Assembly (NCBI GenBank): GCA_031270285.1
Contig: JAISXY010000041.1
Span: forward strand, 3,977 to 67,976
DNA length: 64,000 nt
Direction: 5' to 3'
Source of the DNA: Campylobacteraceae bacterium
GTDB lineage: Bacteria; Campylobacterota; Campylobacteria; Campylobacterales; Campylobacteraceae
Shown here piece by piece: positions 18,876-56,639 of this stretch. The notes below the pieces were generated by a model that saw only the letters and a list, made by a program, of their open reading frames with translations, was not told where the DNA came from and searched no databases. Positions within the stretch are counted from its first letter, which is position 1, and each line of letters begins with the position of its first letter. The position numbers and the translations under genes were made by a program.

Positions 18876-19092
18876 TAAACACCTCGCTTTTCGGGTTGAT
18901 ATACCGAAACTTTATTTAACGCTTCTCCTATTATACTCCAAATTTATTAAAAAGTGCATTATCATGTAAAAATTTTTAAATTGGCTATAAATATTTGCGA
19001 AATTATTTTGTTGCTTTGTTATTTTATCTCAAACTGCGAACAATTAGACGAATTTATTAAAATATATATTTTTAAATATTTTTAATTTTTTT

Positions 19093-19720
19093 GGATACCC
19101 GTTTTCACGGGTATAACGTAGAGAGTGTGTCCTTCCCGCTTCTCCTTTTGTCATTTCCATGTCCTCTTACGTCATTCCCGCGTAGGCGGGAATCCATCTT
19201 CTCATGACGATTATTTATCAAAAATATTCTCATATAAAAATATTTTTTGCATGTTTTTTTGGATACCCGTTTTCACGGGTATGACGAAGGGTGTATGTCA
19301 TTCCCGCGTAGGCGGGAATCCAAAACAAGCGAAGCGCTTTTGCGTAAGCAAAATGTTTCCTTGAAAACAAGTGAAGCGCTTTCGGCTTGCTGAAATGTTT
19401 CCTTGAAAGCGCATTTTAAAAACCTTGCAATATTCAAATAAGGTGAAGCGCATAAAACTAAAACCTTTCACTTTTTTGTATGTTTTTTCATGAAAACATT
19501 TTTGTTGCCTCTTTTGGATACCCGCATTCCTCGCAAATATCGTTTTTTACAAAAACGATTACGCTCGTGCGGGTATGACGAAAAGGGGGTGGATACCCGT
19601 TTGCACGAGTATGACGTAGGGGACGTGGATATGATAAAAAATATATCGGTGCTTGATCGTCCCGCAAGGATAAAACACACAGGTATAACGTGAGTTATGA
19701 CAAAAGGGAAGCAGATATGA
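19093..19720. repeat. Mosaic palindromic repeat array A (NIME-like)
   Basis: Type-2 cores GGATACCCGTTTTCACGGGTAT(GACG) lie at 19093-19114 and 19261-19286. Type-1 cores GTCATTCCCGCGTAGGCGGGAATCC lie at 19171-19195 and 19297-19321. A tandem 42-bp module (aaaacaagcgaagcgc...gtttccttg) spans 19322-19405. An expanded type-2 element lies at 19516-19580. Confidence 0.9.
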
Positions 19721-22161: not shown

Positions 22162-22173
22162 AATCTATCCTTA

Positions 22174-22824: not shown

Positions 22825-22969
22825 CCCTTTAAATAATTTCGCAATTTTATACAATACATGTAAATAATTAGTCTTTGCCAAATTTTGCAAGACAAATATT
22901 TTATCTCATTATCTGTTATTTTAAGTTTAAAGGATATAATAAACTTTTATTTTTTCTTGAAGGATTAAA

Positions 22970-23710
22970 ATGCTTTTAACGGTATTCGGCAACGGCGTGA
23001 TGGCAAACGCAATGATTTCAAGGCTATTAGAGCAGGATTTTAATATAGAGGTTTTCGGACGCGATGAGAAAAAACTACAGGATTTAAAAGAGCGGTTTCA
23101 TTCGCAAATTACAGTATCAACCTATCAAAACGGCGTAAATATAAACGGTAAAAATATCATCTTATGCGTAAAACCGTATGCTTTAAACGAAGTGGCAAAA
23201 TATTTAAAAGGCGAAGCTTCGGCGCTGTTTTCTGTGCTTGCGGGAACTACTCTTGAACAGTTAAAAGAGAGTATAAAAGCCAAAAAATACATAAGAGCGA
23301 TGCCAAATATCGCGGCTATGTTCGGTAAATCTATGACTACTTTAACAGGCGATAAAGAGGCGCTGAATGAAGCCGTAAAAATTTTTGGCGCAATAGGAAA
23401 AACGCTTTGGGTCGGAAGTGAAAAAGAGCTTGATACGGCTACTATTCTTACCGGCAGCGCTCCCGCATTTTTGGCGCTTGTAGCCGAAAGTCTCATGGAC
23501 GGCGGCGTCAAAGAGGGATTAAAAAGAGATGATGCCGCTTTTTTGGCGCGCGGTTTGTTTGAGGGCTTTAGCGAACTATTGAATAACTATCAGCATCCCT
23601 CTTTAATAAAAGACGCTGTCATGAGTCCTAACGGCGTAACAGCCAAAGGATACGCCACGCTTGAAGATTATAAAGTAAGAAGCGCATTCATGAAGGTGTA
23701 TAAGAGTTAA
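22970..23710 (+). CDS. proC: Pyrroline-5-carboxylate reductase
   Basis: 246 aa with CVKP, the GSAPAF block and a C-terminal SPNGVTAKG motif. Confidence 0.85.
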   Translation: MLLTVFGNGVMANAMISRLLEQDFNIEVFGRDEKKLQDLKERFHSQITVSTYQNGVNINGKNIILCVKPYALNEVAKYLKGEASALFSVLAGTTLEQLKESIKAKKYIRAMPNIAAMFGKSMTTLTGDKEALNEAVKIFGAIGKTLWVGSEKELDTATILTGSAPAFLALVAESLMDGGVKEGLKRDDAAFLARGLFEGFSELLNNYQHPSLIKDAVMSPNGVTAKGYATLEDYKVRSAFMKVYKS

Positions 23711-23824
23711 TATATTTTGTACGGCTCTGCTTCATGACCTCTTTTTTATCAGCGGGTCTGGATCAAAGTCGCATTTATCTTTTGTCCAAGTCGTATATTC
23801 AAATACACAACCTCTTCCGCCATG

Positions 23825-24480
23825 CCCATGCGAGCAAAGACTTTTTGTAAAAAACGATATTTGCGAGGAATACGAGTATCCACCCCCTCTATTGTCATAC
23901 CCTCCCCTTATGTCATACCCGCGTAGGCGGGTATCCAAGAAATCATTTATACCATTCCCGTGTTTTTATGTCATACCTTCCCTCCCTTCATCATACCCGA
24001 GTAATCGGGTATCCAAAACAAGCGAAGCGCTTTTGTCAAAGCAAAATGTTTCCTTGAAAAAGAAACAACAAAAATATTTTTATAGAAAAATGGATTTTTG
24101 ACAAATAGTCGTCTTGAAAAGATGGATTCCCGCCTACGCGGGAATGACATAGAATAAAAAAGAATGACACTCTCTCTCCGTCATACCCGCGCGAGCGTAA
24201 TCGTTTTTGTAAAAAACGATATTTGCGAGGAATGCGGGTATCCAAAAAAAAACAACAAAGCAATGAAAGGTTTTTTGATTTTATGCGCTTTACCTTTTTT
24301 TGAATACATACAAGATTTTTAAAATGCGCTCTTGGATTCCCGCCTACGCGGGAATGACATAAGAGGAGGCGGGAATGACGTAAAAGGGAAAGTGAGAAAT
24401 AACATAAGGGGGAGAGGGAATGACCGAAAATACTGGAAGGATGGAAGGGGTCGCGGGAATGACGTAAAGAGGCGATGACA
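23825..24480. repeat. Mosaic palindromic repeat array B
   Basis: Type-2 cores lie at 23912-23936 and 23991-24014. Type-1 cores lie at 24124-24148 and 24334-24358. An expanded type-2 element lies at 24180-24243. Orphan half-sites gggaatgac(g) occur from 24369 to 24465. Confidence 0.9.
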
Positions 24481-24571
24481 TGTAAAAGTCTGTTTTTATT
24501 TGTTCTGCAAACTACGGTAAAAACGACCGATAATGTTTGTGTCCGATTTTGGACGCTTTATTGTTAAATAC

Positions 24572-40400: not shown

Positions 40401-43400
40401 TACCAGCACTCTTACGCCCACGGTTGCATTTGTTATCGTGTTGTTGAGTTGGTCGGCAAGATAGACTTTTATAATAGAGTTAGTGCCGACTTGCGTTGCA
40501 TTCGTAGCGTCTATAAAAGAGTGTGATTGATTGCCAAGATCAGGATCATTTGGATTAAATTTTGCATTTGCCGATTTATTACTGTAATCCGAACCTATAT
40601 GAAAGGTTACGTTATAATCGCCCGTTATATTGGAAGTGATATTGGCGGTATATATGCCGTTACCAAGTCCATTCGCTATTACAGGATAGATAGTAGCGTT
40701 TATACTGTTTGCAGAATTTACATATATCTCCATCTGTTTTCCATCTATAGAGTTATTGTCATTATCCGCAAAATAAACCGTTACCAGCGAGGTATTGCCC
40801 GCATTTGTTACATTAGGCTCTACTCTTATGGTGGTATAATTGCCGCTTGTATTACCACCTGTCGCACTAAAGATAGCCGTAGCGTTTTTCGTTTCATTGG
40901 CACTTACGCCATTCGCTTGAAAGCTTACTATCACGGTGCCTTGCAGTACGCTTGTAAGATTTATATCATAAAAGCCGTTATTGTGATTTACTACATTGGT
41001 GTTATGAAAAGCAGGAACGCCTCCAGCTGTTCCACCCAAATATACTAATGTGACTGTAGCGTTCAGTACGGGATTATTAAATCTATCCCCTATCCATATT
41101 ACCGCCGTAGCGTTTTCTGAAACGCCGATATTTGGATACGGTATCGTTATATTTGAACTGTTAAGATCCGGTACATCATGATGAAAATAAGCCGTTGCGC
41201 CGTTTGGTGCGCTGGAAGCTCCGTTCACCGAAAATGTCAAAAATACATTACCTGAAATATTTGAACTGATATTTGCGCTGTATGTACCGTCTCCGTTATC
41301 TATGGCTGTTATATTACTTCCTGCCGTAGATATGGCATGCGTGCCGTTTGAAAGATGAGGAACTGCCCCAGTGATTGCAGATATAAATAACTTTACATCG
41401 TCTCCGCCTGATGCTATGGTCGTGTTATTGCTATCTTTCAGCGTTACTAATACCGAAGAAGTTCCGCCCACCGTATTATTGCTCGGTATGACGGTTATCT
41501 GCGAATTGCCGACATGTATGCTTGAAGTAGAAATATCTACACGGCATACTACATCGCTTCCAAATGTAGGCGAAATACTAAAAGTACCGTTACCTACTAT
41601 GTCATATGGTAGTGTCGTTATACCACCTATGGCGCATGTTGCCTCAAATTTGTATCTGCTTAGCGGCGCCGTACTTCCCGAAGCCATTTTAATTGTTATA
41701 TTATTTGTATGATCCGCTTCAAGTATTGCAAAAGCGGTCAAATCGCTTGCTGTTCCCGATGAAGTATTTGACGTAAGCAGCAAAGATGTGTTCATGTCTG
41801 TGATACTTAAGTTGAACTGGTCGTTACCAAACGCCCTTCCCGTTATATTCGCATTCACTGTAACGGTAGGAGCCGTACCGTAAGAAAAGGTGCAGATAAT
41901 ATCCGAATTTGTCTTAACATCGCTTGCCGCTATAGTTATATTATCATACCATTTGCCCGATACTTGATATCTCGCAAATGTCAAAGGCAAATTAGCGTTA
42001 GCATTACTCAAATCTTTACAAGTAGTCTCATTGCTCATGATACCAAGCGTTTGAGGCTTATCTACCGTGATTGAAACGGCCGTACCCGCTGAATTTATCC
42101 TGTGAACTACTCCTAAAGGCTCATCCGTTACATTATTTGCTGATGTGGTATAAAATGTAGTGGAAGCGGTTGAGGGAGGAGTGGCGGACGCAAGTATATT
42201 GCTCATGTTAAAGGTAAAATTACCGCTGTTGCCCGTAGTTCCTACGGTTTTTAGAGCGACTCTTACCTGTCTATCTACAACAAATATCCGATAATCCTCT
42301 ACCTCTCCGTCCAGTACCCATGGATTAGATGCGCTGGAGCTTGCATTGGCTGTAGCCGATATGCCTGAAGAGGTCGTGTATCTTGCTCTCAAGAAACTGC
42401 CTCCGACGCCCTGTGCGGGGAGAGTCCCGCTAAAAGTTATATTGTCTCCCGTACCTACTTGATCTGTCGCTCCAAAATTACTCCAACTATTTACGCTTGC
42501 CGCTATAAAAACGCTGAGTTTACCTTCGTTTTTTTTACTGCCGTTGATATCCGCTTTGAACGCATAGGCTGTATTTGGTACAAAACCTCTCTCTTGTACG
42601 GGTATATATCTGTTATCTACAAACACATAGATACCGTCGTCGTACGAGTCGCTGTTTGCCAGCGAATTTCCTATATAGTTTTGGTCTATAGTTACATTTG
42701 AGCCGAGATATGCGAAAAGCTGACTGTTTTTCTTTAAAACGGAGCTGTGAAGTACTTCGTTAAAGTTTGCGTCGCTTCTATCTGAAGCGATAGTAAAGGC
42801 GAAATTGGCTCTGGAAACTGCCAAGTCGGTTGTTACATGAACTTTTGATATATAATTGGCGATTGAATCCGCGCCGTTGGCGGTACTGTCAATGCCATCC
42901 GCCCGTTTGCCGTAGCATGAGCGGTTAGAAGAGCTGCCCGTAGTGTCGTCAACGCTGGTATTCAAATCTGCGCAATAGTTAGATACGGTATTGACGTTGC
43001 CGCCGGAGTTAGGCGTGCTAAATGTCCCGCCCGAAGCCCATGTCTGCGCTAAATGGGTGCCGTTTACGGCGGGGTTTTTGACGCGCACATAAAAGTCCAC
43101 ATTATTGGTATCGTTGATGATAAAAGAGTAAGTGCCGTTATTGGCGGTAGTTGTAGTGCTAAGCAAAGCGCCTGATTGGCTGTAGAGTTGCACCGTCAAG
43201 CCGTCTATACCATTCTCTGTACCCGATATAACGCCGTCTCCCTCTGCATCGTTAAATACCTGTCCTCTAAGGATAGGAGAAACTTGGCAAGAGGCAAGGT
43301 CAATAAGCTCACCAGATCCCATATCTATAACAGAAGAGCCTACAATCCCTGAAAGCGGATCCAATGATCCTATATCGCCACCATCATCTCCAAAATACAA

Positions 43401-44204
43401 CTTACCGTTCAAAAAAGCCATACCCCATACATTACTAGGATTGTTGCCACTAGGCATACCCGTAATACTGCTTACAATGTCGCCACTCCATGGAGCAGGG
43501 TAAAAAGTGCCGTCCTGTTTTTTGATATTGATACGCATTAAAAACCAGTTATTGTTGGTATTACTATCTACTGTTACCAACACATATGCGTTTCCTTCAG
43601 CATCTATCGCCATATCGGAAGCAACAAAATATTGTTTACCATCTGACGATATAACGCGGCTGTAAGTAGAAGTGTGGGAAGTGGTGTTATAAACGCCGAT
43701 GGCAAAAGTGCCTTGACTGCTGCTAGATGTTCCTGTGTAGCTGGTATAATCGCCGGTTATATATATCTCTCCTGTTAATTGATTGACTTCGCCGCCTGAT
43801 AAGTCTTCGCCAAAAGCGTAAAAACGGTTAGCAGGATTACCAATATTACCCCAATTGGCACCACCACTATCTATATAGCGTACCCCATTTGCTGTATCAC
43901 CATTATAACCATAACCCCAACTATACATTCTAAGAGTGCTGCTGCCAGGCGGGCGACCTAACGCGATAGTATCATAAGTGTCAGTAGACGGTGGATTAAG
44001 TCCTGTGCTAGTCGATGTTCCTGTTTCTACATTTACCTCGTAAAGATTAGTACCGCTCTTATCTGCATATAACCTATCGCATCTAAAATCCCATGCATGA
44101 GCGCTCATGCTCAAAGCCATAACGGCAAAGACAGAAAATAGTAATTTTTTTATGAAACAAATCTTACAAGAAAGATTAAGACTTTTTAGCTCAGACATTT
44201 GCAT
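34401..44204 (-). CDS. 3267-aa secreted giant adhesin: beta-propeller-like N-domain, SdrD-B-like, GEVED-motif region, about 20 Big_1 (invasin/intimin-type) Ig repeats, DUF11-like and SdrD-B-like C-terminal modules
   Basis: A GAGGGG RBS precedes the start, and the signal peptide is ...AVMALSMSAHA|WD. GQVFNDAEGDGV...NGTYSF lies at residues about 311-380, and LDGEVEDYRIF at about 631-641. About 19-20 domain junctions of the form xF(x)xGxxxxxxSxLxVxP occur between residues about 895 and 3005 (nt about 41522-35190). ITDFTAATSMAHVGDLIRYTVNIQN lies at about 3016-3040. IFGTVYIDSNANGMQDEGEIGIPGV lies at about 3143-3167. Confidence 0.85.
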   Translation of the reverse strand: MQMSELKSLNLSCKICFIKKLLFSVFAVMALSMSAHAWDFRCDRLYADKSGTNLYEVNVETGTSTSTGLNPPSTDTYDTIALGRPPGSSTLRMYSWGYGYNGDTANGVRYIDSGGANWGNIGNPANRFYAFGEDLSGGEVNQLTGEIYITGDYTSYTGTSSSSQGTFAIGVYNTTSHTSTYSRVISSDGKQYFVASDMAIDAEGNAYVLVTVDSNTNNNWFLMRINIKKQDGTFYPAPWSGDIVSSITGMPSGNNPSNVWGMAFLNGKLYFGDDGGDIGSLDPLSGIVGSSVIDMGSGELIDLASCQVSPILRGQVFNDAEGDGVISGTENGIDGLTVQLYSQSGALLSTTTTANNGTYSFIINDTNNVDFYVRVKNPAVNGTHLAQTWASGGTFSTPNSGGNVNTVSNYCADLNTSVDDTTGSSSNRSCYGKRADGIDSTANGADSIANYISKVHVTTDLAVSRANFAFTIASDRSDANFNEVLHSSVLKKNSQLFAYLGSNVTIDQNYIGNSLANSDSYDDGIYVFVDNRYIPVQERGFVPNTAYAFKADINGSKKNEGKLSVFIAASVNSWSNFGATDQVGTGDNITFSGTLPAQGVGGSFLRARYTTSSGISATANASSSASNPWVLDGEVEDYRIFVVDRQVRVALKTVGTTGNSGNFTFNMSNILASATPPSTASTTFYTTSANNVTDEPLGVVHRINSAGTAVSITVDKPQTLGIMSNETTCKDLSNANANLPLTFARYQVSGKWYDNITIAASDVKTNSDIICTFSYGTAPTVTVNANITGRAFGNDQFNLSITDMNTSLLLTSNTSSGTASDLTAFAILEADHTNNITIKMASGSTAPLSRYKFEATCAIGGITTLPYDIVGNGTFSISPTFGSDVVCRVDISTSSIHVGNSQITVIPSNNTVGGTSSVLVTLKDSNNTTIASGGDDVKLFISAITGAVPHLSNGTHAISTAGSNITAIDNGDGTYSANISSNISGNVFLTFSVNGASSAPNGATAYFHHDVPDLNSSNITIPYPNIGVSENATAVIWIGDRFNNPVLNATVTLVYLGGTAGGVPAFHNTNVVNHNNGFYDINLTSVLQGTVIVSFQANGVSANETKNATAIFSATGGNTSGNYTTIRVEPNVTNAGNTSLVTVYFADNDNNSIDGKQMEIYVNSANSINATIYPVIANGLGNGIYTANITSNITGDYNVTFHIGSDYSNKSANAKFNPNDPDLGNQSHSFIDATNATQVGTNSIIKVYLADQLNNTITNATVGVRVLVNDTGNFVPPGSNNSITYTADSSDQRGGYYTVSYSTTVAGNVTFGFSANNVIAPANNNDTTTFTVGNVNLTNSIFSVSPHEVYAGENVTITLHLLDSDGNGVDGETVTFSVANATLENGTVLGVNNDVIFSSVVDLNNGTYTATASTNSSKNVTFAFYVANVGGSTSVTPHKTDWAKFKSGNVSIGHPNTTITATSTVEVNSNSTITVTLKDDKNNPVNNETVKIIILSGNSGNNGTFNPSTATIGQDGTGNGRYTLYFTTPVSETVTFGFEVGSNSNHSKNASTIFTSGSANNTTSSLSFNPPQDSVSVESNFTATALIKDNNGNAVGNKVVNFAVSGGALNTYSCTTAADGTCFVVWTSTIAGSYTMNATIDGKHISGSPAIKGFTAGLANETTSTFLLEAGPKSVGQLFNMNATLRDKYNNTITNQYVFYSLEPAIDGAGFGLVGTETDSMNSTTGAAAISTNTLWSNLVGTYKITVRFGSETGPEITGSNQTATFIPATVSALSSNLTVTGAGPVDSEGGYYTVRTYAKDSVGPNFVPGTNINITVTNGTLTTNVNSPGTIQSIICTTNVQGYCEYYWVSPSEKGNFTITAALTNGTAISNSPQIREFKSGSANASFSDLYIVEAGPKTANGTDRYTAVITLRDSSNIPTSGSVLVSVSGGLLDGSYTINSYSVDPLSGNITIYWSSTNANNFTINATVGNVLIQNGTQIREFIPGPVSLGDSSFVITPLSSVTADNISAYTLSVNIKDAYQNNKPGSLITFDVQEGYLNNSTVSYKNSTCTTLANGNCSITWFSDKVGNFSVTAKVEGMIISGLQYRDFVQGIVSFATSNLTVLPTTSRTADNSSYFTATAYIKDALNHDITGELVTFTVNGGWLDNTTNRSTTLTCVSLDGSCSVRWRSDTPGSPTIWANVSAGQVGSTQRQFIASNAAAFNSTLTVDPAGPVLVGTGLYTATVTAVSSTGTLSPGAIIQFSVEGGTLSSDSCEANASGQCSITWTSNQSGNFSINATIADTNLGGNGDPVLASPQRRVFTAGTAQNANSTLVITPPTDTVIANSGNYYTLNITARDIYNNAVPNQFMNIYIGYGELNNNTGFTAGNSTCQTDSLGNCLVLWRSDKTGEFLVNVTIAGETTPIYSSNEDKARRFTYDSLSSSSYFRVDSYNASQPNNISVCEESESTIASCLIYYALNAYVEDNSGNKMEGANVTFRIYRGGVEVRDAYLDDKIIDGFHGTIAGGHSCVTNATGQCSANITLKANIAGEYQIYASVGSTYLDGYGTPSVKDIKKTFVAGSASSQTSRIHFNPVADNSIEANNVSYYTTTVEVLDIHSNPINNALVALAVPVTSWLDNTTAVNSTIVCTTASNGNCSVLWRSTLADNPQNITANVESITLNGTRTFITGGVNLNMSNITVSAHNVTTDDTVTVTVTVNDAQGNPIKNTNHDVVIYTSLSNSSFDGGTAGHTGTLTNVNGTYSAVLRSTKIGNTTLTFTINGGSPSSNTEWVYFNSGEVDVNESNNNTNIQAVSPVDVGSNSLVTVYLGDKGGNPIDNLSVTIYILANNTNSTAELNGLENVTINGGTGGNYTANLTAFNQGSVAVSFIINGLNINGNDHGKNATVIFQTGTVNATNSGIYVTHEIDNTTNASADGIDYYTVTVIARDAFNSTAAENVSIYFEIDKGNLSNVNTSSGNIQTLTCLTGLDGSCTVYWMSEEWGKANVTAYINGSIVSGFPIEREFRRILFDDNLTITDFTAATSMAHVGDLIRYTVNIQNNMDQPAIFDLKNTIPKGFSFVEGSVSSTTANGTVNSTFISAHEFNANNLTVTNNGEIKVVFILRVGAGVKQGKHKSYVEAFKASISISNKASAEVEITGDPMIDESLIFGTVYIDSNANGMQDEGEIGIPGVRIATAEGYIITTDQFGRYHLLNILGGEWGVGRNFIMKVDASSLPTGSTFTTANPLLRRLTPGIPVRFDFGVKLPDNIKNLEALMRSVTTTEGGAQ

Positions 44205-44499
44205 ATACCCCTCGTTTTATCGTTATGTACGTCGCTTTTATTAATTTACTCTATTACTTTAAAACTGCGCAATTCCCCTTAAAGAATGGCTTAATTTATA
44301 AAAAAGTAGAGAGAAATTAACTTTAATTGGTAATATTAGCGTTTATTTTATAAAATTAGAATTAATCCATTTAAAAATTTTTCATCAAGAACAAAATAAA
44401 GCAAAATTTTTAACGAAAAGTTGCATGATATAGCTTGTCTATATAAATGCTGCAGCTTAAATCTCCACTTTCAGCTTATCTTACAAAAATCCTTTTTTC

Positions 44500-45725
44500 T
44501 CTCTATGTCATTCCAATATTTTACGTCATTCCCGCGTAGGCGGGAATCCATCTTTTCTTCTTTCGTCATTCCCTTATGTCATTCCCGCTTCCTCCCTTTT
44601 TCCCTCCCCCTCTATGTCATTCCCGCGTAGGCGGGAATCCATCTTCTCATGACGATTATTTATCAAAAATCCATTTTTTCATGAAAGCATTTTTGTTATC
44701 TCTTTTTGGATACCCGTCTTCACGGGTATGACGTAAAGAGAGTGTCATTCCTTTTTTCCCCTCCTCCTTTTTTCGTCATTCCGCACCCCTATGTCATTCC
44801 TGTTTCCCTCTGTCATTCCCGTGCAAACGGGAATCCATCTTCTCATGACGACTATTTATCAAAAATTCATTTTTTCATGAAAGCATTTTTGTTATTTTTT
44901 TTGGATACCCGATTGCTCGGGTATGACGAAAAGAGAGTGTCATTCCTTTTTTCCCCTCCTCCTTTTTTCGTCATTCCCGCCTCTCCCCTATGTCATTCCC
45001 GCGCAGGCGGGAATCCAAACGTCATTCCCTCCTCACACTATGTCATTCCCGCGCCCTACGCCCAAGCTTACGAAGTAAGCGCATATCGTGAGGGATGGCG
45101 GGAATCCAAGAGCGCATCAAATTATCTTTCATTTCAAACAAAGCAAAAGCGCATAAAACCAAAAACTTTCACTGCTCCCCTCCCCCTTACGTCATTCCCG
45201 TGAAAACGGGAATCCATCTTCTCATGACGACTATTTATCAAAAATTCATTTTTTCATGAAAGCATTTTTGTTATTTCTTTTGGATACCCGTTTGCACGGG
45301 TATGACGTAGAGAGTGTATGTCCTTCCTTTTTCTTTTTTCGTCATACCTCGCCCTCACTTATGCCATTCCCGTTTCCCCCCCCTTTCGTCATTCCCGCGA
45401 CCGAACGACAAGCTTACGAAGTAAGCGCATATCGTGAGGGATGGCGGGAATCCATCTTCTCATGATAATTATTTATCAAAAATCCATTTTTCCGTAAAAA
45501 CATTTTTGTTGTTTCTTCTTTGGATACCCGCCTACGCGGGTATGACGTAGGGGACGGATATAACGTAGAAAGGGTTGGATTTCCGCCTACACAGGAATGA
45601 CGTAAAGGGCGGATACCCATTCTCAAGGAAACATTTTGGAAATGCGCTTCGCTTGTTTTCAAGGGAATGACGTAGGGGTGGGCGGGTATGACATGAAAAC
45701 ATGGGCATGACATAAAGTGTGTCAT
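44500..45725. repeat. Mosaic palindromic repeat array C (largest; about 195-bp composite unit repeated about 5 times)
   Basis: Type-1 cores lie at 44525-44549, 44616-44640, 44812-44836, 44992-45016 and 45191-45215. Expanded type-1 elements lie at 45042-45107 and 45388-45453. Type-2 cores lie at 44708-44733, 44903-44928, 45282-45307 and 45522-45547. Shared spacers atcttctcatgacga.tatttatcaaaaat.cattttttcatgaaagcatttttgttat and polypyrimidine modules separate them. Confidence 0.9.
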
Positions 45726-45779
45726 TTCTGCTTCATGAAAGAATCCAAAAAATATGTTAAAATAGCCGAAAGGCAAAAA

Positions 45780-46076
45780 ATGCAATCAAAGCAAGGTTAT
45801 GTTTATATATTGTCAAACAGACCAAACGGGACGCTGTATATCGGCGTAACTTCGGATTTGGTAAAAAGAGTACATGAACACAAAAACCATCTTGTTGAGG
45901 GATTTACTTCAAAATATGACTTAAATGATCTTGTCTATTATGAGATATTTGATGATATTGTTAATGCGATATTGCGGGAAAAACAGATGAAAAAATGGAA
46001 CCGCGCTTGGAAGCTAAAACTGATAAATAAGTTCAATCCTGCATGGAGGGACTTGTATGATGATATTTGTAAGTAA
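45780..46076 (+). CDS. GIY-YIG nuclease family protein (small stand-alone, UPF0213-like)
   Basis: Contains GYVYILSN..NGTLYIGVTSDLVKRVHEHK...REKQMKKWNRAWK. The start was chosen at the Met after GAAAGG, because the longer ORF (45717) runs into repeat sequence. Confidence 0.8.
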   Translation: MQSKQGYVYILSNRPNGTLYIGVTSDLVKRVHEHKNHLVEGFTSKYDLNDLVYYEIFDDIVNAILREKQMKKWNRAWKLKLINKFNPAWRDLYDDICK

Positions 46077-46122
46077 ATCCAAATTTCTATCCACTCTGTT
46101 TATCGCATAATAGAGAAATCGC

Positions 46123-46386
46123 CTACTCATAAACATCTTTTCTATGAGCTATCCTTAAAATCAAAACGACTAATTCGCTATCTTGTATCTTGCAAATGAT
46201 ACGATAATCCCCAACGCGATAACGCCAATACTCTCTCAATTTGCCCTTAAGAACTTTACCGTTTTGCCTTGGATAGCTTTGCGCGGAAAGTTTTTCAAGA
46301 AAAGAGATGATCTGCATGGATGCCGATCTATCAAGCTTTGATAACTCTTTTTTGGAGCTGGCTTTAAATCTAACTATCCAGCTCAA
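46123..46386 (-). CDS. Type II toxin, RelE/ParE (StbE-like) family
   Basis: 87 aa with LKGKLREYWRYRVGDYRIICKIQDSELVVLILRIAHRKDVY. It overlaps the antitoxin gene by 17 nt. Confidence 0.85.
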   Translation of the reverse strand: MSWIVRFKASSKKELSKLDRSASMQIISFLEKLSAQSYPRQNGKVLKGKLREYWRYRVGDYRIICKIQDSELVVLILRIAHRKDVYE

Positions 46387-46585
46387 GCTCTTGTTTCACT
46401 TCTTTTAATGTATATGTTTTCTCTTTTTTTAGGTCAGCCTGTTCAGCCAGATAATAATCCTCCAGATCGTCAAGATTGTCCTCTATCAGCCTGCGAAGAT
46501 AAAAAGCTTTTGATCTGTCTGTAAGATCGGCCAATCTATTTAGTCTTGATTCTATCTCTTTATCTACTCTGATAGATAGCGTCAT
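46370..46585 (-). CDS. Type II antitoxin, ribbon-helix-helix (CopG/RelB-like)
   Basis: Starts MTLSIRVDKEIESRLNRLADLTDRSKAFYLRRLIE (RHH pattern). A GAGGAA RBS is present. The start is at the internal Met (46585). Confidence 0.7.
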   Translation of the reverse strand: MTLSIRVDKEIESRLNRLADLTDRSKAFYLRRLIEDNLDDLEDYYLAEQADLKKEKTYTLKEVKQELELDS

Positions 46586-46654
46586 TTTAAATTCCTCACT
46601 AATGTATTCAATGAAAACATTGTAATACAATTTATCAAAAATGTCAATTTAAGA

Positions 46655-47100
46655 TATTCGTCCTTCCCTTTTTTCCGTCCTTCCTCCTCCTTTTTTTCTT
46701 TTTTCGTCATACCTCGCCCTCACTTATGTCATTCCCCCCGCTTCCTCTTTCCGCCATTCCCGCCCCCCCTTTGTCATTCTCGCCTCTCCCCTATGTCATT
46801 CCCGCGTAGGCGGGAATCCAAGAGCGCATTAAATTATCTCGCATACTAAACAAAGTAAAAGCGCACAAAACCAAAACTTTCACTGCTTTGTTGTTTTTTC
46901 ATGAAAACATTTTTGTTATTTCTTTTTGGATACCCGCCTACGCGGGTATGACGTAGGAGACGGGTATGACGAAAGGGGTGGATGGCCGATTACAAGGAAA
47001 CATTTCAGCAAGCTGAAAGCGCTTCGCTTGTTTTCACGGGTATGACGTAGAGGTGGTGGATACCCGTTTGCACGGGTATGACAAAGGAGGCGGGTATCCA
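46655..47100. repeat. Mosaic palindromic repeat array D
   Basis: Polypyrimidine tracts span 46661-46705. A type-1 core lies at 46795-46819. Type-2 cores lie at 46928-46953 and 47058-47082. A type-2 element with the 45-bp aaacaagcgaagcgc module in its loop lies at 46980-47047. Confidence 0.9.
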
Positions 47101-47161
47101 AAAAGAATTGCATTAAAGGAAAACAGAAATGAATAAGGAGGTGAATTGCTATAAAGACAAT

Positions 47162-47281: not shown

Positions 47282-48505
47282 TTAGAATGTGTATTTGAGC
47301 TCTAACTGAATTTCGCTAAGGTCTTCAGTATCTGCATCAAGATATGAATAGTATAACTCTACAGCAAATTTTGGCGCAAGTTGATAAGAGCCGAGTAGAT
47401 AAATCTCGCTAAAATCATCATCGCCAAAGTCAGCTATACCATAGCCGCCTTCAACACCAAATTTACCGAATGTACCGCCGCCTTTTATAAAGTATGTCGC
47501 TGTATCAGGTACATTTGTTGTTAGATAGTAGAGTTGTTGACCGAATTTGATAAAGCCGTCATTGTCATCGTCAAGCGCATAGATAGGCTGATCTTCGTCT
47601 GTCTGAGTATAGCCTGCCGTTACAAAGAATTTGTCATTTTTGTAGCCGCCCTCAATACCGTAGAATAGACCTGCATCATCAGCTAATAATGCTGTATATG
47701 GAGCAGTAACAACAACAGGAGTACCAGTACTATCAATACCATCAACTATTATTTCATCTGAAATCTTCAAATAGTTTACTTGAGCTCTTACATTAAAGCC
47801 TGCCTGCGCAAAACTTGCCTGAGCAAATACAGTTGTATCTATAAGATTCTCAAGTTTTGCTGCCCAGAATTGCAAATCAACAGGACCGGCTTTACCGATA
47901 GCGCCTAAAGCATACAAGTTGCTATTACTACCAAGATCTGGAACATTAATAGTAGTCAATGATTGAACATATTCATCAACAAATAGGCTATCAAATCCAT
48001 TTGTCTGTAGGTACAATGCGCCTGCAAATGTCCAATTTGGCACGCCTGAGTACAATGCTACCAAACCGTTACCGCGTGAGCCTGCGAAACCTGACTCAGC
48101 CCATGGAGCGGGAACAGTGTATTTACCGCCGATAACAGCTAAGTCTTTAACGCCTGTGTACAAGAAGTAGTATTTGTCAAAGTTAAATGATCGAGCGCCG
48201 AGGTCGCCTGTCGGAGCGCTTGGTCCTGCATCAGGATAGTTATATCCGTCTGTAGTCAAAGTCGTACCGAAAGCTAAACCGTCAGCTACCGGAGCTACTA
48301 TATTTAACTCGCCTGAAACTCTGATAGCTTCGCCTGTTACATCGTCAGCACCATCTACGCCAAGAGTATCGTGCGTATATCTTAATCTCGCAAAACCGCT
48401 TACGTCAACGCCTTTGATAGCCTCTTCCAATGGAGTTGCGCTCGCGAATGAGCCTAAAGCACCTACTGCGACTATCGCAGCTAAACTTAACTTAGTTAAT
48501 TTCAT
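47282..48505 (-). CDS. Major outer-membrane porin, Campylobacter MOMP (PorA-like) family, paralogue 1
   Basis: Signal peptide MKLTKLSLAAIVAVGALGSFASA. The body is beta-strand rich and ends in the C-terminal LELKYTF. Confidence 0.8.
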   Translation of the reverse strand: MKLTKLSLAAIVAVGALGSFASATPLEEAIKGVDVSGFARLRYTHDTLGVDGADDVTGEAIRVSGELNIVAPVADGLAFGTTLTTDGYNYPDAGPSAPTGDLGARSFNFDKYYFLYTGVKDLAVIGGKYTVPAPWAESGFAGSRGNGLVALYSGVPNWTFAGALYLQTNGFDSLFVDEYVQSLTTINVPDLGSNSNLYALGAIGKAGPVDLQFWAAKLENLIDTTVFAQASFAQAGFNVRAQVNYLKISDEIIVDGIDSTGTPVVVTAPYTALLADDAGLFYGIEGGYKNDKFFVTAGYTQTDEDQPIYALDDDNDGFIKFGQQLYYLTTNVPDTATYFIKGGGTFGKFGVEGGYGIADFGDDDFSEIYLLGSYQLAPKFAVELYYSYLDADTEDLSEIQLELKYTF

Positions 48506-48644: not shown

Positions 48645-49200
48645 GGGTATCCATTGTACCCTCTACGTCATATCCGAGTAATCGGGTATCCAAAAGAATA
48701 ACAAAAATGCTTTCATGGAAAAATGGATTTTTGATAAATAGTCGTCATGAGAAGATGGATTCCCGCCTACGCGGGAATGACGTAGGGTTTTGATTTTATG
48801 CGCTTTTGCTTTGTTTGATATGCAAGATAATTTAATGCGCTCTTAGATTCCCGCCATCCCTCACGATATACGCTTTCTGCGAAAGCTTGTCGTTCGGTCG
48901 CGGGAATGACGTAAGGGAGAGGGAAAAAAAGGAACGACACTCTCTCTATGTCATACCCGTGAAAACAAGCGAAGCGCTTTCAGCTTGCCGAAATGTTTCC
49001 TTGAAAGCGTATTCAATAAATCTTTTATATTTCAATATAGATAAAACGCATAAAACCATCTCATGAGGGCAATGTCTCTTTGAGTTGTTTTGGATTCCCG
49101 CCTACGCGGGAATGACGTAAGGGTGAGGCGGGAAGGACATAGTGGGGAGGCAAGAATGACATATGCTCTTTTCGTCATACCCGTGAAGACGGGTATCCAA
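48645..49200. repeat. Mosaic palindromic repeat array E
   Basis: Type-2 cores lie at 48666-48691 and 49173-49198. Type-1 cores lie at 48757-48782 and 49092-49117. An expanded type-1 element lies at 48845-48911. Orientation is opposite to arrays A, C and D. Confidence 0.9.
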
Positions 49201-49248
49201 AAAGAAAAGTAAAACAAACATAGAATAATTTGTTTTATGCCTAATAAA

Positions 49249-51084: not shown

Positions 51085-51516
51085 TTACTGTATTAGTTGA
51101 GAACAAAGATCTCCTGCTTCTACTATCGCACATGTAAAGATTCCTGTAGCAGTACTATATGTAAATGTTACATCATCACCGTCTATATCTAAATTATAGG
51201 TTTTTCCCGCTTCTACCTCTGTCCAGCCTCTTCCATTAGCGTCGGCAGCAGGTTGAATAGGATAAGTAAGCACTCCCTCAAACAGCTTGGTTGCATCTAG
51301 TCCTTCTAATGGAGGGAATGCGGGATTCCCCTGCAGAAGGTTTTCACTTCTTGTCGTTGATATGGCGCTTCGTATTGTTGATATATCCGAAGCATATCTC
51401 GTTATTTGCGCATCTCTTCTTGTGGCAGTGAGTTTAGGGACAGCAATGGAGGCTAAAATACCTAAAATGACTATGACGAAGATCAATTCTACCATTGTAA
51501 AAGCTGAGCGTTTCAT
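51085..51516 (-). CDS. Type IV pilin / pseudopilin-like protein
   Basis: Starts MKRSAFTMVELIFVIVILGILASIAVP (prepilin N-methylation motif with Glu5). Its stop TAA abuts the priA ATG directly. Confidence 0.75.
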   Translation of the reverse strand: MKRSAFTMVELIFVIVILGILASIAVPKLTATRRDAQITRYASDISTIRSAISTTRSENLLQGNPAFPPLEGLDATKLFEGVLTYPIQPAADANGRGWTEVEAGKTYNLDIDGDDVTFTYSTATGIFTCAIVEAGDLCSQLIQ

Positions 51517-51597: not shown

Positions 51598-52062
51598 TTA
51601 GTCGCGTTTAATACCTGTGCCACCAAAACTGATATTACCGCCATTTGCATGTATGGTGGAATTCAAAGTTTTATCCTTAAGCATCTCCGTACAAACGGTA
51701 CCAGTTCCTGCTCCTGCAGCAACAGTTAAAACACCGGCGTTGTTAAATGTTATCTTAACACAAGGGTCTTTGGCACTGCCTACACTTGTCTCATAATTAA
51801 TTGCAGTACCTGCAACTGTAGGGTTTGCAGCAACATTGTCAAAGTTAGCAACATTCGTCATTGCGCTGACAGTAGTAGCCCATTCACCTTGTGAAGTATA
51901 GTAAGCACCAAAATCACTGATAGCCATTTGAACTTCCGTCAAACCTTTAGCGATTTGTGCGTCATCTCTCGTAGCTGTTAGTCTTGGAATAGCTACAGCC
52001 GCTAAAATACCTAAAATAACGATCACGAAGATCAACTCAATCATAGTAAAACCGCGTCTCAT
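51598..52062 (-). CDS. Type IV pilin / pseudopilin-like protein
   Basis: Starts MRRGFTMIELIFVIVILGILAAVAIP and has two Cys in the C-terminal half. Confidence 0.75.
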   Translation of the reverse strand: MRRGFTMIELIFVIVILGILAAVAIPRLTATRDDAQIAKGLTEVQMAISDFGAYYTSQGEWATTVSAMTNVANFDNVAANPTVAGTAINYETSVGSAKDPCVKITFNNAGVLTVAAGAGTGTVCTEMLKDKTLNSTIHANGGNISFGGTGIKRD

Positions 52063-54677: not shown

Positions 54678-54704
54678 TTTATGGTATTTTTGTCTGCTTA
54701 CCGA

Positions 54705-55310
54705 TGTCCTCTCTACGTCATACCCGATTACTCGGGTATCCAAAACAAGCGAAGCGCTTTTGCGTAAGCAAAATGTTTCCTTGAAAACAAGCGAAGCGCT
54801 TTCGGCCTGCCGAAATGTTTCCTTGAAAGCGTATTCAATAAATCTTTTATATTTCAATATAAATAAAACGCATAAAACCATCTTATGGGGTCAATGTCTA
54901 TTTGAGTTTTTTGGATTCCCGCCTGCGCGGGAATGACATAAGAGGACATGGAAATGACAAAAGGAGAAGCGGGAAGGACGTAAAAAGAAAAAGGAAAGAC
55001 ACTCTCTCTCTACGTCATACCCGATTACTCGGGTATCCAAAAATAATAAAACAAATGAAAAATAAGGTTTTTTGGTTTTATGCGCTTTATCATTTAAATA
55101 TATGTAAGATTTTAAAATGCGCTCTTGGATTCCCGCCTGCGCGGGAATGACGTAAGGGAGTCGTGAAGGACGTAAAAAGAAAAAGGAAAGACACTCTCTC
55201 TACGTCATACCCGCATGAGCGTAATCGTTTTTGTAAAAAACGATATTTGCGAGGAATACGGGTATCCACCACCTTCTATGTCATACCCGCACAGGCGGGT
55301 ATCCAAAAAG
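54705..55310. repeat. Mosaic palindromic repeat array F
   Basis: Type-2 cores lie at 54716-54741, 55013-55038 and 55280-55304. Type-1 cores GGATTCCCGCCTGCGCGGGAATGAC lie at 54913-54937 and 55127-55152. An expanded type-2 element lies at 55203-55267. A tandem 45-bp module spans 54742-54830. Confidence 0.9.
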
Positions 55311-55460
55311 AAATAACAAAAATGTTTTCATAAAAAAACATACAAAGCAGTGATCTGTCTTAATTTTATATAATGCTCATGCGGGCTTAAAGAAAAAATA
55401 AAAGCGTGGTGATTTTAGAGATAGTCCCCCGATAAACGGGGGATTTGTAAAGCTGAATAT

Positions 55461-56639
55461 TTAGAAGTTATATTGAGCCTGGAAACGAATCTCGTCGTTG
55501 GTATTCTCATCTGTACCTGTTGTTTTGCCAGGTCTAGTATCGTTATCAAGATCTATATGAGAATAGTACAACTCAAGACCGAAATTTTTGGCATATTTAT
55601 ATGTAATTGTGCCGTAAGCTTCGCTGTAGTCTTGGTCTCTGCTGCCTACATCAGCCAAACCATAGCCAAGTTCAAAGCCAAATTTATCTATAGTCGCTCC
55701 GCCTTTTATAAATGCCGTACCGACATCATTAACATTTGAAGTTCTATAGTAGAGCTGTTTACCAAATCTTATAAAACCGCTGTTATCCGCATCAAGCGCA
55801 TAGATACCCTGATCTTTATCGCTCGCCGTATAGCCTGCCGTTACGGCAAACTGCTGGTTTTTATAACCGCCCTCTAAACCATAAAAAATACCTGCGTCTT
55901 CAGCTGCGCCGACTTGGTCTGCAAGCTTTAAGTAGTTCAACTGACCTCTTGCGTTAAATCCGTTTAAAGCAAATTTTGCTTCACCAAACAGTACCGCATC
56001 AGCTACAGTCTCCAAATTTGCTGCCCAAAACTGCAAACCGACAGGCCCCACTTTACCGATAGCGGCTAAAGCGTATAAATTGTTATCGCTGTCAAAACTT
56101 GTAGGAGCATATGGATGACCATTTAAAGCGTTCGTCTGCAGATATGCCGCACCAGCTACCGTCCAGTCAGGATTGATAGAATACAGAGCAAGTACGCCGT
56201 TACCGTAAGAACCTGATATAACAGATGTTTGCGTCCATGGAGTAGGTATCTCTATCTTACCCGCTTTTACAGTCAAACCGCCAGCGCCGTACTGAAAGAA
56301 GAATTTATCAAAATTAAAACTTCTTCCGCCCGTATCGCCTGCCGGTGAACTTGCATCGGTATCGCCTCTATTCCATATATCGGTTACTAAAGCGGTACCA
56401 AATTTCAAGCTGTCCGTTACAGGTACAATTAACTGTAAATAGCCCGAAAAACGATTCGCATCCACACCTCTGTTGCCGCTTGAGACAGGAGTAGCAAAAT
56501 CAGATTGAGAATGGTATCTGTATCTTGCCTGACCGCTTACCTCAACACCCTTTACTGCCTCTTCAAGAGGCGTAGCGCTTATAGAACTAAACGCACCTAC
56601 CGCTATAGCAGCGGCTAAACTTAACTTTGCTAGCTTCAT
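55461..56639 (-). CDS. Major outer-membrane porin, Campylobacter MOMP family, paralogue 2
   Basis: Signal peptide MKLAKLSLAAAIAVGAFSSISA and C-terminal RFQAQYNF. It shares conserved blocks with paralogue 1. Confidence 0.8.
   Translation of the reverse strand: MKLAKLSLAAAIAVGAFSSISATPLEEAVKGVEVSGQARYRYHSQSDFATPVSSGNRGVDANRFSGYLQLIVPVTDSLKFGTALVTDIWNRGDTDASSPAGDTGGRSFNFDKFFFQYGAGGLTVKAGKIEIPTPWTQTSVISGSYGNGVLALYSINPDWTVAGAAYLQTNALNGHPYAPTSFDSDNNLYALAAIGKVGPVGLQFWAANLETVADAVLFGEAKFALNGFNARGQLNYLKLADQVGAAEDAGIFYGLEGGYKNQQFAVTAGYTASDKDQGIYALDADNSGFIRFGKQLYYRTSNVNDVGTAFIKGGATIDKFGFELGYGLADVGSRDQDYSEAYGTITYKYAKNFGLELYYSHIDLDNDTRPGKTTGTDENTNDEIRFQAQYNF

What the first reader, a model, noticed from the sequence alone, without database searches (positions are those of the whole stretch)
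55127..55152. Palindromic repeat core essentially identical to the Neisseria dRS3 element (ATTCCC-N8-GGGAAT), found in a Campylobacterota-like genome
**Seen in sequence**
- GGATTCCCGCCTGCGCGGGAATGACG lies at 55127-55152 and 54913-54937.
- GTCATTCCCGCGCAGGCGGGAATCC lies at 44992-45016.
- At least 10 further copies carry a GTAG/CTAC centre.

**Established knowledge (from memory)**
- Neisseria genomes carry hundreds of 20-bp dRS3 inverted repeats with consensus ATTCCC-N8-GGGAAT, very commonly as ...GTCATTCCCGCGCAGGCGGGAATC...
- These repeats delimit 50-150-bp units in Neisseria intergenic mosaic elements (NIMEs).
- They also serve as integration sites for filamentous prophages that use a Piv/IS110-type recombinase.

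Finding the same core, including the GTCA/TGAC flank, in an unrelated phylum is unexpected. It points to convergent selection for one recombinase or DNA-binding target, or to horizontal spread of the element and its cognate enzyme.
Basis: partly seen in the sequence, partly recalled or inferred. Interest (0 to 1): 0.75.

Follow-up and report, generated by a model that had tools for sequence, protein, structure and literature searches.

The report
Hairpin repeats targeted by SsnA nuclease
The Neisseria-like palindromes are real, but they belong to a repeat family already described across many phyla. These are hairpin sites recognised by a small single-strand DNA nuclease (SsnA), and a homologue of that gene sits among them in this window, so this is an ordinary new member of a known system.

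Summary
ATTCCC-N8-GGGAAT occurs 14 times (0.01 expected). With their oriented flanks, 31 short copies of GTCAT[T/A]CCCG-N6-CGGG[A/T]ATCC plus 5 long-loop copies fill six intergenic arrays between 19 kb and 55 kb.

The similarity to Neisseria goes beyond the 6-nt arms. It includes the CGTC head and the ATCC tail, and the best copy matches 27 of 28 positions of the published NTS consensus.

The explanation is already published. Di Nocera 2013 described the "CGTC-1" repeats, which equal dRS3 and occur in five phyla including Sulfurovum. Chenal 2025 showed that dRS3/NTS hairpins are the single-strand DNA target of SsnA, a ~94-aa GIY-YIG nuclease that is widespread and usually flanked by these motifs.

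The window encodes such a protein at 45780-46076, between two repeat arrays. It is 59% identical, without gaps, to the gonococcal SsnA orthologue (E=2e-42), and the catalytic Tyr/Tyr/Glu align.

Of the 80 best homologue loci in other phyla, 64 have a motif within 300 nt of the gene. The window contains no Piv/IS110 recombinase, RAYT transposase or prophage.

Verdict: a new member of a known kind, in an uncultured Campylobacteraceae genome. Local peculiarities are two stem variants coupled to orientation, long-loop copies, and a synteny break at the arrays. Cleavage and biological role are inferred, not shown.

The parts
45780..46076 (+). ssnA homologue: a 98-aa single-domain GIY-YIG nuclease, the predicted cognate single-strand DNA endonuclease of the repeats
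   Evidence: Pfam GIY-YIG E=2.8e-16. It is 59% identical, without gaps, to the 94-aa N. gonorrhoeae SsnA orthologue, E=2e-42. Y9/Y20/E67 align with the Y6/Y17/E64 mutated in Chenal 2025. The AF2 model has pLDDT 92, and its top PDB fold matches are GIY-YIG domains. It is the only GIY-YIG locus in the window. A promoter-like site lies at 45735-45763.
19059..19630 (.). Repeat array 1, between the Calx-beta giant gene and lon. Copies: 19093-19117(-)A, 19171-19195(+)T, 19261-19285(-)A, 19297-19321(+)T, 19516-19579(-)A long-loop, 19591-19615(-)A
23791..24493 (.). Repeat array 2, between the P5C reductase gene and recG. Copies: 23912-23936(+)A, 23990-24014(+)A, 24124-24148(-)T, 24180-24243(+)A long-loop, 24334-24358(-)T, plus orphan heads
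44500..45710 (.). Repeat array 3, between the giant adhesin gene and ssnA. Copies: 44525(+)T, 44616(+)T, 44708(-)A, 44812(+)T, 44903(-)A, 44992-45016(+)T, 45042-45107(+)T long-loop, 45191(+)T, 45282(-)A, 45388-45453(+)T long-loop, 45522(-)A, 45577(-)T degenerate. Each short copy is 25 nt from the start given. Many orphan GTCATTCC heads are also present.
   Evidence: The 165-aa 'ORF' at 44706-45203 consists entirely of repeats.
45720..45745 (+). Possible decayed motif (GTCATTTCTGCTTCATGAAAGAATCC) at the canonical position just upstream of ssnA; low confidence
   Evidence: Read directly. The position matches the upstream (+) motif seen at most homologue loci.
46657..47123 (.). Repeat array 4, between relB and porin 1. 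Copies: 46795-46819(+)T, 46928-46952(-)A, 47058-47082(-)A, plus orphan heads
48647..49222 (.). Repeat array 5, between porin 1 and priA. Copies: 48667-48691(+)A, 48757-48781(-)T, 49092-49116(-)T, 49174-49198(+)A
54692..55328 (.). Repeat array 6, between uvrB and porin 2. Copies: 54717-54741(+)A, 54913-54937(-)T, 55014-55038(+)A, 55127-55151(-)T, 55204-55267(+)A long-loop, 55280-55304(+)A
55127..55152 (-). On the minus strand, 55124-55151 reads CGTCATTCCCGCGCAGGCGGGAATCCAA, which matches 27 of 28 positions of the Neisseria NTS consensus.

Best explanation
The palindromes are Ssn-related motifs, also known as the NTS / dRS3 / 'CGTC-1 REP' family. Each is an oriented ~28-nt element with a CGTC head, an 8-bp stem (AT[T/A]CCCGN), a 4-nt loop and an ATCCA tail. 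Each folds into a hairpin when the DNA is single-stranded.

They are the recognition sites of the SsnA-family GIY-YIG nuclease encoded at 45780-46076. By analogy with the characterised Neisseria and Wolbachia enzymes, this protein should bind the hairpin only in single-stranded DNA and only on the strand that carries the CGTC head. It should then cut a few nucleotides 5' of the head, in the pyrimidine-rich tract.

The nuclease gene and its sites have spread horizontally as a module among many phyla. In this lineage the sites have multiplied into NIME-like mosaic arrays in intergenic regions next to porin and adhesin genes.

The likely cellular consequence is fragmentation of repeat-bearing single-stranded DNA, for example incoming transforming DNA. 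That would limit or shape recombination around the flanked genes.

Shown here: the repeat family, its hairpin constraint, the presence and homology of the nuclease gene, and the gene-motif association across phyla. Inferred: cleavage, strand specificity and biological role in this organism.
For: Repeats
- There are 31 short and 5 long-loop oriented copies, all intergenic and none expected by chance.
- The published SRM regex gives 9 hits against 0.17 in simulations. The remaining copies fail only on the last base, A.
- The positions reported as critical in Neisseria are kept in the short copies. The C after the palindrome is invariant. In the GTC head the T is invariant and G and C are each kept in 30 of 31 copies.
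- The predicted DNA hairpin has dG of -7 to -9 kcal/mol, z of -2.1 to -4.3 over the four copies folded.
- Stem pairing is 99.6%, with compensatory changes at pair 3 (T:A in 15 copies, A:T in 16) and pair 8 (C:G 16, T:A 9, A:T 5). None of 500 shuffles reached this.

Nuclease
- Pfam GIY-YIG domain.
- 59% identity to the gonococcal SsnA orthologue, with the catalytic Y/Y/E aligned.
- Confident GIY-YIG fold.

Association across genomes
- The gene lies between arrays 3 and 4.
- A close relative (L001, 81% identity) has 16 motifs on both sides of its ssnA.
- Of the 80 best homologue loci, from about 15 phyla, 68 have a motif, 64 have one within 300 nt of the gene and 31 have them on both sides. The usual layout is (+) upstream and (-) downstream, and ATTCCCGCG is the commonest stem.
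- The gonococcal ssnA sits in the same kind of array.

Literature
- PMC11893778 and PMC3733652.

Competence-type genes in the window
- dprA, ssb and two pilin-like genes.
Against: - No biochemistry exists for this protein. Cleavage, strand specificity and cut position are extrapolated from homologues that are 59% identical.
- Half of the copies are the ATACCC variant, and it is not known whether the single SsnA seen here cuts them. Chenal 2025 report only partial cross-specificity between variants.
- The motifs immediately flanking this ssnA are degenerate upstream and displaced downstream by a relBE pair, so the canonical tight motif-gene-motif unit is not intact here.
- Natural competence of this organism is unknown.
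- Genome-wide abundance could not be checked.
Confidence: 0.85

Rival explanations
1. The module is primarily a selfish mobile element. Motif(+)-ssnA-motif(-) would be an insertion-sequence-like unit that moves through single-stranded DNA, and the gene-less T(+)...A(-) units would be its miniature non-autonomous copies. This is not exclusive of the best explanation.
For: - The gene-less convergent pairs have the same geometry as the gene-bearing unit found in other phyla.
- Dispersed units are 92-94% identical to each other, while orthologous genes are only 68-81% identical to relative L001.
- Motif type is coupled to orientation like left and right ends: 17 of 17 opposite-strand neighbours are heterotypic.
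- About 28 orphan heads lie in the arrays.
- Chenal 2025 raise the insertion-sequence analogy.
Against: - GIY-YIG nucleases cut but are not known to rejoin DNA, and no strand-transfer activity has been reported.
- No empty-site versus filled-site pair or target-site duplication was found.
- The arrays could equally grow by unequal recombination or gene conversion.
- Di Nocera 2013 found no transposase for CGTC repeats.
Confidence: 0.2
2. The repeats are attachment or integration sites for a Piv/IS110-type recombinase of filamentous prophages, as dRS3 is used in Neisseria.
For: dRS3 is a documented phage recombinase target in Neisseria (cited in PMC11893778).
Against: - No IS110/Piv recombinase or phage gene is present among the window's ORFs of 150 aa or more.
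- The SsnA protein has no match in 50,697 phage records.
- Such use would be secondary and would not explain the conserved oriented head and tail, or the association with ssnA in about 15 phyla.
Confidence: 0.03
3. They are classical REP/BIME elements mobilised by a RAYT (HUH tyrosine) transposase.
For: They are small, intergenic, clustered hairpin repeats with unpaired tags, as REPs are.
Against: - The tag is CGTC, not GTAG.
- CGTC repeats were never found flanking RAYT genes.
- There is no Y1 transposase in the window.
- A GIY-YIG gene is the associated gene instead.
Confidence: 0.02
4. They act mainly at the RNA level, as intrinsic terminators or mRNA-stabilising hairpins. In that case the similarity to Neisseria would be convergence on a stable GC stem.
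For: The hairpins are stable and some lie at 3' ends of genes. One copy (44528-44547) passes a terminator-like scan.
Against: - Only 1 motif in the scanned 5-kb region is terminator-like, and the total (4 sites) is not above the shuffle mean of 4.6.
- The tail is A-rich, not T-rich.
- Copies occur in both orientations in every array.
- There is no Rfam match.
- The conserved unpaired head and tail, together with a 59%-identical cognate nuclease, argue for common descent rather than convergence.
Confidence: 0.05

Closest known systems
Neisseria NTS/dRS3 with SsnA (Chenal et al. 2025, Nat Commun, PMC11893778)
   Same: - Same oriented motif: CGTC head, ATTCCCGCG stem, 4-nt loop and ATCC tail.
- Same kind of 94-98-aa single-domain GIY-YIG protein, 59% identical with the catalytic Y/Y/E aligned.
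- The gene is embedded in arrays of motifs in alternating orientation.
- Arrays lie next to surface-protein genes.
   Different: - The host is a Campylobacteraceae genome of about 40% GC.
- The commonest loop is GTAG rather than GCAG or GAAG, and the tail ends in A or T rather than G, so no copy fits the strict NTS consensus.
- Half the copies are an ATACCC stem variant tied to the opposite orientation.
- Long-loop copies are present.
- Activity and any effect on transformation are untested here.
CGTC-1 REP family (Di Nocera et al. 2013, BMC Genomics, PMC3733652)
   Same: CGTC-tagged palindromes with a CCA tail. The family was equated with dRS3, found in five phyla including Sulfurovum sp. NBC37-1, clustered in some hosts, and found in opposite-orientation dimers.
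   Different: That paper found no associated enzyme. Here, and in Chenal 2025, the GIY-YIG gene is the associated gene. This host was not among the genomes surveyed.
Neisseria intergenic mosaic elements (NIMEs)
   Same: Arrays of 50-300-nt repeat modules, each bounded by dRS3-type inverted repeats. The modules are shuffled between arrays.
   Different: The spacer modules are unrelated in sequence and specific to this lineage. One module tested had no exact match in 185,579 species genomes or in the JGI metagenomes.
REP/BIME with RAYT, and IS200/IS605
   Same: A small enzyme gene is flanked by hairpin repeats that are recognised as single-stranded DNA. Gene-less copies are amplified in mosaic clusters.
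   Different: The enzyme is a GIY-YIG nuclease, not an HUH tyrosine transposase. The tag is CGTC, not GTAG. Transposition has not been demonstrated.

Membership tests
dRS3 repeat (ATTCCC-N8-GGGAAT) | Exact 20-bp pattern present in many copies | tested here: met
   14 exact matches against 0.01 expected.
NTS (28-nt CGTCATTCCCGCGMAVGCGGGAATCYRG) | Match to the full oriented consensus; the paper allows 1 mismatch | tested here: inconclusive
   0 exact matches, 1 copy with at most 1 mismatch, 7 with at most 2, and 13 with at most 3. The deviations are concentrated at the loop base M (T here) and the last base (A or T rather than G).
Ssn-related motif (SRM) | Match to the published degenerate regex HGTCWYN(0-2)YYVSBRHN(0-5)WNVSBRGN(0-2)RNCYNB | tested here: met
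   9 strict hits against 0.17 in simulations. The other copies fail only because their last base is A.
Ssn-related motif (SRM) | Hairpin-forming, with a conserved oriented head, and the C after the palindrome conserved | tested here: met
   Hairpin fold. 99.6% pairing with compensatory changes. In the head, T14 is invariant and G13 and C15 are kept in at least 90% of copies; the tail ATCCA is invariant.
Ssn nuclease family (SsnA) | Single-domain GIY-YIG protein of about 94 aa | tested here: met
   98 aa, with Pfam GIY-YIG covering residues 6-79. AF2 model with GIY-YIG fold matches.
Ssn nuclease family (SsnA) | Homology to Neisseria SsnA (the paper's criterion is E<1e-10) | tested here: met
   59% identity over 93 aa without gaps, E=2e-42 pairwise, to the 94-aa N. 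gonorrhoeae orthologue. The N. meningitidis protein itself was not available.
Ssn nuclease family (SsnA) | Catalytic Tyr, Tyr and Glu (Y6, Y17, E64 in N. meningitidis) | tested here: met
   Y9, Y20 and E67 align to them. All three are invariant in the 53-sequence alignment; in the 16-sequence alignment Y20 is invariant and Y9 and E67 are nearly so.
Ssn nuclease family (SsnA) | Gene flanked by SRMs | tested here: met
   Arrays 3 and 4 lie on either side of the gene. The nearest intact copies are 178 nt upstream and 719 nt downstream, beyond a relBE pair.
Ssn nuclease family (SsnA) | Assignment to CDD cd10448 (GIY-YIG_unchar_3) | not testable with these tools
   No CDD library was available.
Ssn nuclease family (SsnA) | Site- and strand-specific cleavage of single-stranded DNA only | not testable with these tools
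   Requires purified protein and oligonucleotide assays.
REP/RAYT system | GTAG tag and an associated Y1 (RAYT) transposase gene | tested here: not met
   The tag is CGTC. No transposase was found in the window ORFs.
Piv/IS110 prophage integration site | IS110/Piv recombinase or filamentous prophage abutting a repeat | tested here: not met
   None in the 64-kb window. The rest of the genome is unavailable.

The most novel reading that the evidence does not exclude
Motif-ssnA-motif is an autonomous mobile element of a new mechanistic class, in which a GIY-YIG nuclease acts on single-stranded hairpin ends. The gene-less T(+)...A(-) composite units, which have distinct 'left' and 'right' hairpin variants, would be its miniature derivatives. 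Their arrays would drive rearrangement and cassette exchange around porin and adhesin genes in this Campylobacteraceae lineage.
Probability: 0.15. Interest if true: 0.7.

Novelty: new member of a known kind. Interest (0 to 1): 0.3.

Why it matters
- The finding extends the SsnA/hairpin-repeat system, recently shown to control which incoming DNA Neisseria can integrate, to a repeat-rich uncultured Campylobacteraceae genome. Campylobacterota include naturally transformable pathogens.
- The local density, 36 motifs in 64 kb next to porin and adhesin genes, parallels the Neisseria pattern around surface antigens.
- For annotation, these arrays generate spurious ORFs and probably break assemblies.
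- The two orientation-coupled stem variants give a natural test case for SsnA specificity.
- None of this overturns current knowledge.

Tried and rejected
- Exact-protein look-ups for UvrB, the GIY-YIG protein and P0001 found no contig on record. The source record could therefore not be retrieved.
- The lineage-specific module CGGGAATCCATCTTCTCATGA (6 copies in the window) gave 0 hits in genome contigs and 0 in metagenome contigs.
- The supplementary tables of Chenal 2025 are not held, so I could not check whether Campylobacterota genomes were in their lists.
- Rfam at gathering thresholds gave 0 hits, and there are no tRNAs.
- A sequence search of the PDB gave only weak GIY-YIG (UPF0213) hits, so no solved close homologue exists.
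- No SsnA homologue is present in 50,697 phage genomes.
- The terminator hypothesis was rejected.
- The RAYT and Piv/IS110 hypotheses were rejected for the window.

Full report
**1. Observation**

ATTCCC-N8-GGGAAT occurs 14 times, against 0.01 expected.

The element is longer than the palindrome and has an orientation. GTCAT[T/A]CCCG-N6-CGGG[A/T]ATCC, with up to 2 mismatches, occurs 31 times. All copies are intergenic, and none appears in Markov-1 simulations.
- Fifteen copies have the dRS3 stem ATTCCC ("T-type").
- Sixteen copies have ATACCC ("A-type").
- Five further copies have the same head, stem base and tail but a 44-46-nt insert in the loop that is itself a hairpin.

The copies lie in six arrays: 19.06-19.63, 23.79-24.49, 44.50-45.71, 46.66-47.12, 48.65-49.22 and 54.69-55.33 kb. 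They are interleaved with shuffled spacer modules.

The host assignment is supported by two Campylo_MOMP porins and by RecG/PriA subfamily models. An identical protein is labelled "Campylobacteraceae bacterium" MAG. GC is about 40% throughout the window, and a related metagenomic contig shows the same arrangement. Contamination by Neisseria DNA is therefore excluded.

**2. Anatomy**

An alignment of the 31 short copies shows these features:
- a pyrimidine-rich 5' flank ending in TA[C/T];
- a GTCAT head in which T, A and T are invariant and G and C are each kept in 30 of 31 copies;
- an 8-bp stem and a 4-nt loop;
- an invariant ATCCA tail.

As single-stranded DNA the core folds into an 8-bp hairpin with dG of -7 to -9 kcal/mol. 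Stem pairing is 99.6%. Two stem positions change on both sides: pair 3 is T:A in 15 copies and A:T in 16, and pair 8 is C:G in 16, T:A in 9 and A:T in 5. None of 500 shuffles and none of the slid registers approaches this. The hairpin is therefore under selection, while the unpaired head and tail are conserved in sequence.

Only one motif in a 5-kb test region looks like an intrinsic terminator, and the total number of terminator-like sites there is not above chance. There is no Rfam match.

**3. The associated gene**

A 98-aa ORF lies between arrays 3 and 4, at 45780-46076 on the plus strand. It is a single GIY-YIG domain (Pfam E=2.8e-16) and the only such locus in the window. Its AF2 model is confident (pLDDT 92), and its best PDB fold matches are GIY-YIG domains: UPF0213, Slx1 and the UvrC N-terminal domain.

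A relBE toxin-antitoxin pair (46123-46630, minus strand) separates the gene from array 4. A decayed motif may remain 34 nt upstream of the start codon.

No transposase, IS110/Piv recombinase or phage gene is present among the other ORFs of 150 aa or more.

**4. What is known**

Chenal et al. 2025 (PMC11893778) reported the following:
- dRS3 is the core of a 28-nt oriented element, NTS (CGTCATTCCCGCGMAVGCGGGAATCYRG).
- The 94-aa GIY-YIG protein SsnA binds NTS only as single-stranded DNA, only on one strand, and cuts a few nt upstream.
- The C after the palindrome is critical for binding, and the three bases before the palindrome are critical for cutting.
- SsnA lowers transformation by NTS-bearing DNA.
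- Thousands of homologues in many phyla are flanked by related motifs (SRM): 71% have at least one and 42% have them on both sides.

Di Nocera et al. 2013 (PMC3733652) had already classed dRS3 as the "CGTC-1" REP family. They found it in five phyla, including Sulfurovum sp. NBC37-1, noted a CCA tail, and found no transposase.

**5. Direct tests of membership**

PLSDB holds a 2.17-Mb N. gonorrhoeae replicon labelled as a plasmid. It encodes a 94-aa protein with Y6, Y17 and E64, embedded in NTS arrays.

The window protein is 59% identical to it (82% similar) over 93 residues without gaps, E=2e-42. Y9, Y20 and E67 align to the catalytic residues.

The window's T-type consensus, TA[C/T]GTCATTCCCGCGTAGGCGGGAATCCA[A/T], differs from the gonococcal consensus essentially at one loop base and the last tail base. 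The published SRM regex gives 9 hits against 0.17 expected, and the other copies fail only on the final base.

**6. Wider association**

- A species-level genome scan found at least 590 relatives of the protein.
- The best 80 are 57-70% identical and come from about 15 phyla. They include Sulfurovum, Sulfuricurvum, Helicobacter sp. CLO-3, CPR bacteria, Planctomycetes, Chloroflexi and Nitrospira.
- Of these 80 loci, 68 carry a motif, 64 have one within 300 nt of the gene and 31 have them on both sides.
- The usual layout is (+) upstream and (-) downstream, and ATTCCCGCG...CGCGGGAAT is the commonest stem.
- The protein is unusually conserved, with mean column identity of 70-72% across phyla. This fits horizontal spread of a constrained module and argues against convergence.
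- The five Campylobacterota loci among the 80 have 0 or 1 motif.
- This window has 36 motifs in 64 kb, and its 81%-identical relative L001 has 16 in 16 kb. These two represent a lineage-specific expansion.

**7. Local peculiarities (descriptive)**

(a) Motif type is coupled to orientation. All 17 neighbouring pairs on opposite strands are T with A, and 7 of 8 same-strand neighbours are the same type. Each array is thus a tandem series of a composite T(+)...A(-) unit. The commonest unit has a 65-67-nt AT-rich spacer, and the array can lie in either direction. Because the units are copies of each other, this is a structural rule, not 17 independent events.

(b) About 28 orphan GTCATWCC heads lie in the arrays, mostly stacked 5' of full copies, against about 1.4 expected in the whole window.

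(c) Relative to L001, the lon-yfiO-P5CR block has moved. Both of its ends, and the end of the ssnA block, fall in motif arrays in both genomes. This is a single comparison. It is consistent with the arrays acting as recombination breakpoints, as reported for dRS3 in Neisseria.

(d) The arrays flank two MOMP porin paralogues and two giant adhesin genes.

(e) dprA, ssb and two pilin-like genes are in the window. These fit a transformable organism but do not prove it.

**8. Limits**

- The source MAG is absent from the searchable collections. Genome-wide abundance, further ssnA paralogues and recombinases elsewhere in the genome could not be examined.
- No activity data exist for this protein.
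- Whether one enzyme handles both stem variants is unknown.

**9. Verdict**

The link is already explained: these are SsnA-related hairpin motifs with their cognate GIY-YIG nuclease gene.

This is a new member of a known kind and of modest interest. The most novel reading still open is that the module and its gene-less units are mobile by a GIY-YIG-based single-strand mechanism.

Noticed in passing
window 46123-46386 (-) and 46370-46630 (-): A RelE/ParE toxin and a RelB-family antitoxin lie between ssnA and the downstream repeat array (Pfam ParE_toxin E=6e-13; NCBIfam RelB-like E=3e-20). Relative L001 has an ssnA-proximal motif 22 nt after the stop codon and no such pair, so the pair may be an insertion.
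   Followed up: partly
window 19754-23710 versus L001 11276-15228; window 35601-46078 versus L001 1-10299: In L001 the order is adhesin-ssnA-lon-yfiO-P5CR. In the window the lon block lies 12 kb upstream of the adhesin. All block boundaries coincide with repeat arrays in both genomes.
   Followed up: partly
window 47282-48505 (-) and 55461-56639 (-): Two Campylo_MOMP porin paralogues, with 71-72% nucleotide-identical stretches (families D9 and D16). Porin 1 is bracketed by arrays 4 and 5, and porin 2 follows array 6, which recalls NTS-gene-NTS around Neisseria surface antigens.
   Followed up: partly
window 34401-44204 (-), 30727-34404 (-), 13470-18875 (-): Three very large ORFs: 3267 aa (its L001 homologue has Big_1/Invasin_D3/SdrD_B repeats), 1225 aa (no Pfam hit) and 1801 aa (Calx-beta). 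They are probably surface adhesins, and two of them abut repeat arrays.
   Followed up: partly
window 19516-19579, 24180-24243, 45042-45107, 45388-45453, 55204-55267: Long-loop motifs with a normal head, stem base and tail but a 44-46-nt insert in the loop. There are two insert families, and each insert is itself a hairpin. Whether SsnA would accept them is unknown.
   Followed up: partly
window arrays, e.g. 44565, 44578, 44744, 44775, 44793, 44939, 44970, 45021 (+): About 28 orphan 5' heads (GTCATWCC with no 3' half) are stacked upstream of full copies in C/T-rich tracts, against about 1.4 expected by chance. They may be scars of cutting and repair, or of slippage. This is unexplained.
   Followed up: no
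window 1796-2569 (-), 10064-10516 (+), 51085-51516 (-), 51598-52062 (-): DprA, SSB and two tandem pilin-like genes with N-terminal methylation motifs. These are genes of the kind used for DNA uptake and for processing transforming single-stranded DNA.
   Followed up: no
window 44706-45203 (+); proteins P0036 and P0104: A 165-aa 'ORF' consists entirely of repeat array sequence. Some database homologues carry N- or C-terminal extensions that match the window's repeat motifs in tblastn. The repeats therefore cause spurious or over-extended gene calls.
   Followed up: partly
L086 (NZ_CP119140.1, PLSDB): A 2.17-Mb N. gonorrhoeae replicon is labelled as a plasmid in PLSDB and is almost unannotated (12 features in the whole record). 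It looks like a chromosome filed as a plasmid. It provided the Neisseria SsnA orthologue and NTS arrays used for comparison.
   Followed up: partly
L086 15541-20691: In the gonococcal arrays two stem subtypes (ATTCCCGCG and ATTCCCACG) also alternate. In this stretch the ACG subtype is found only on the minus strand. This loosely parallels the T/A orientation coupling in the window.
   Followed up: no
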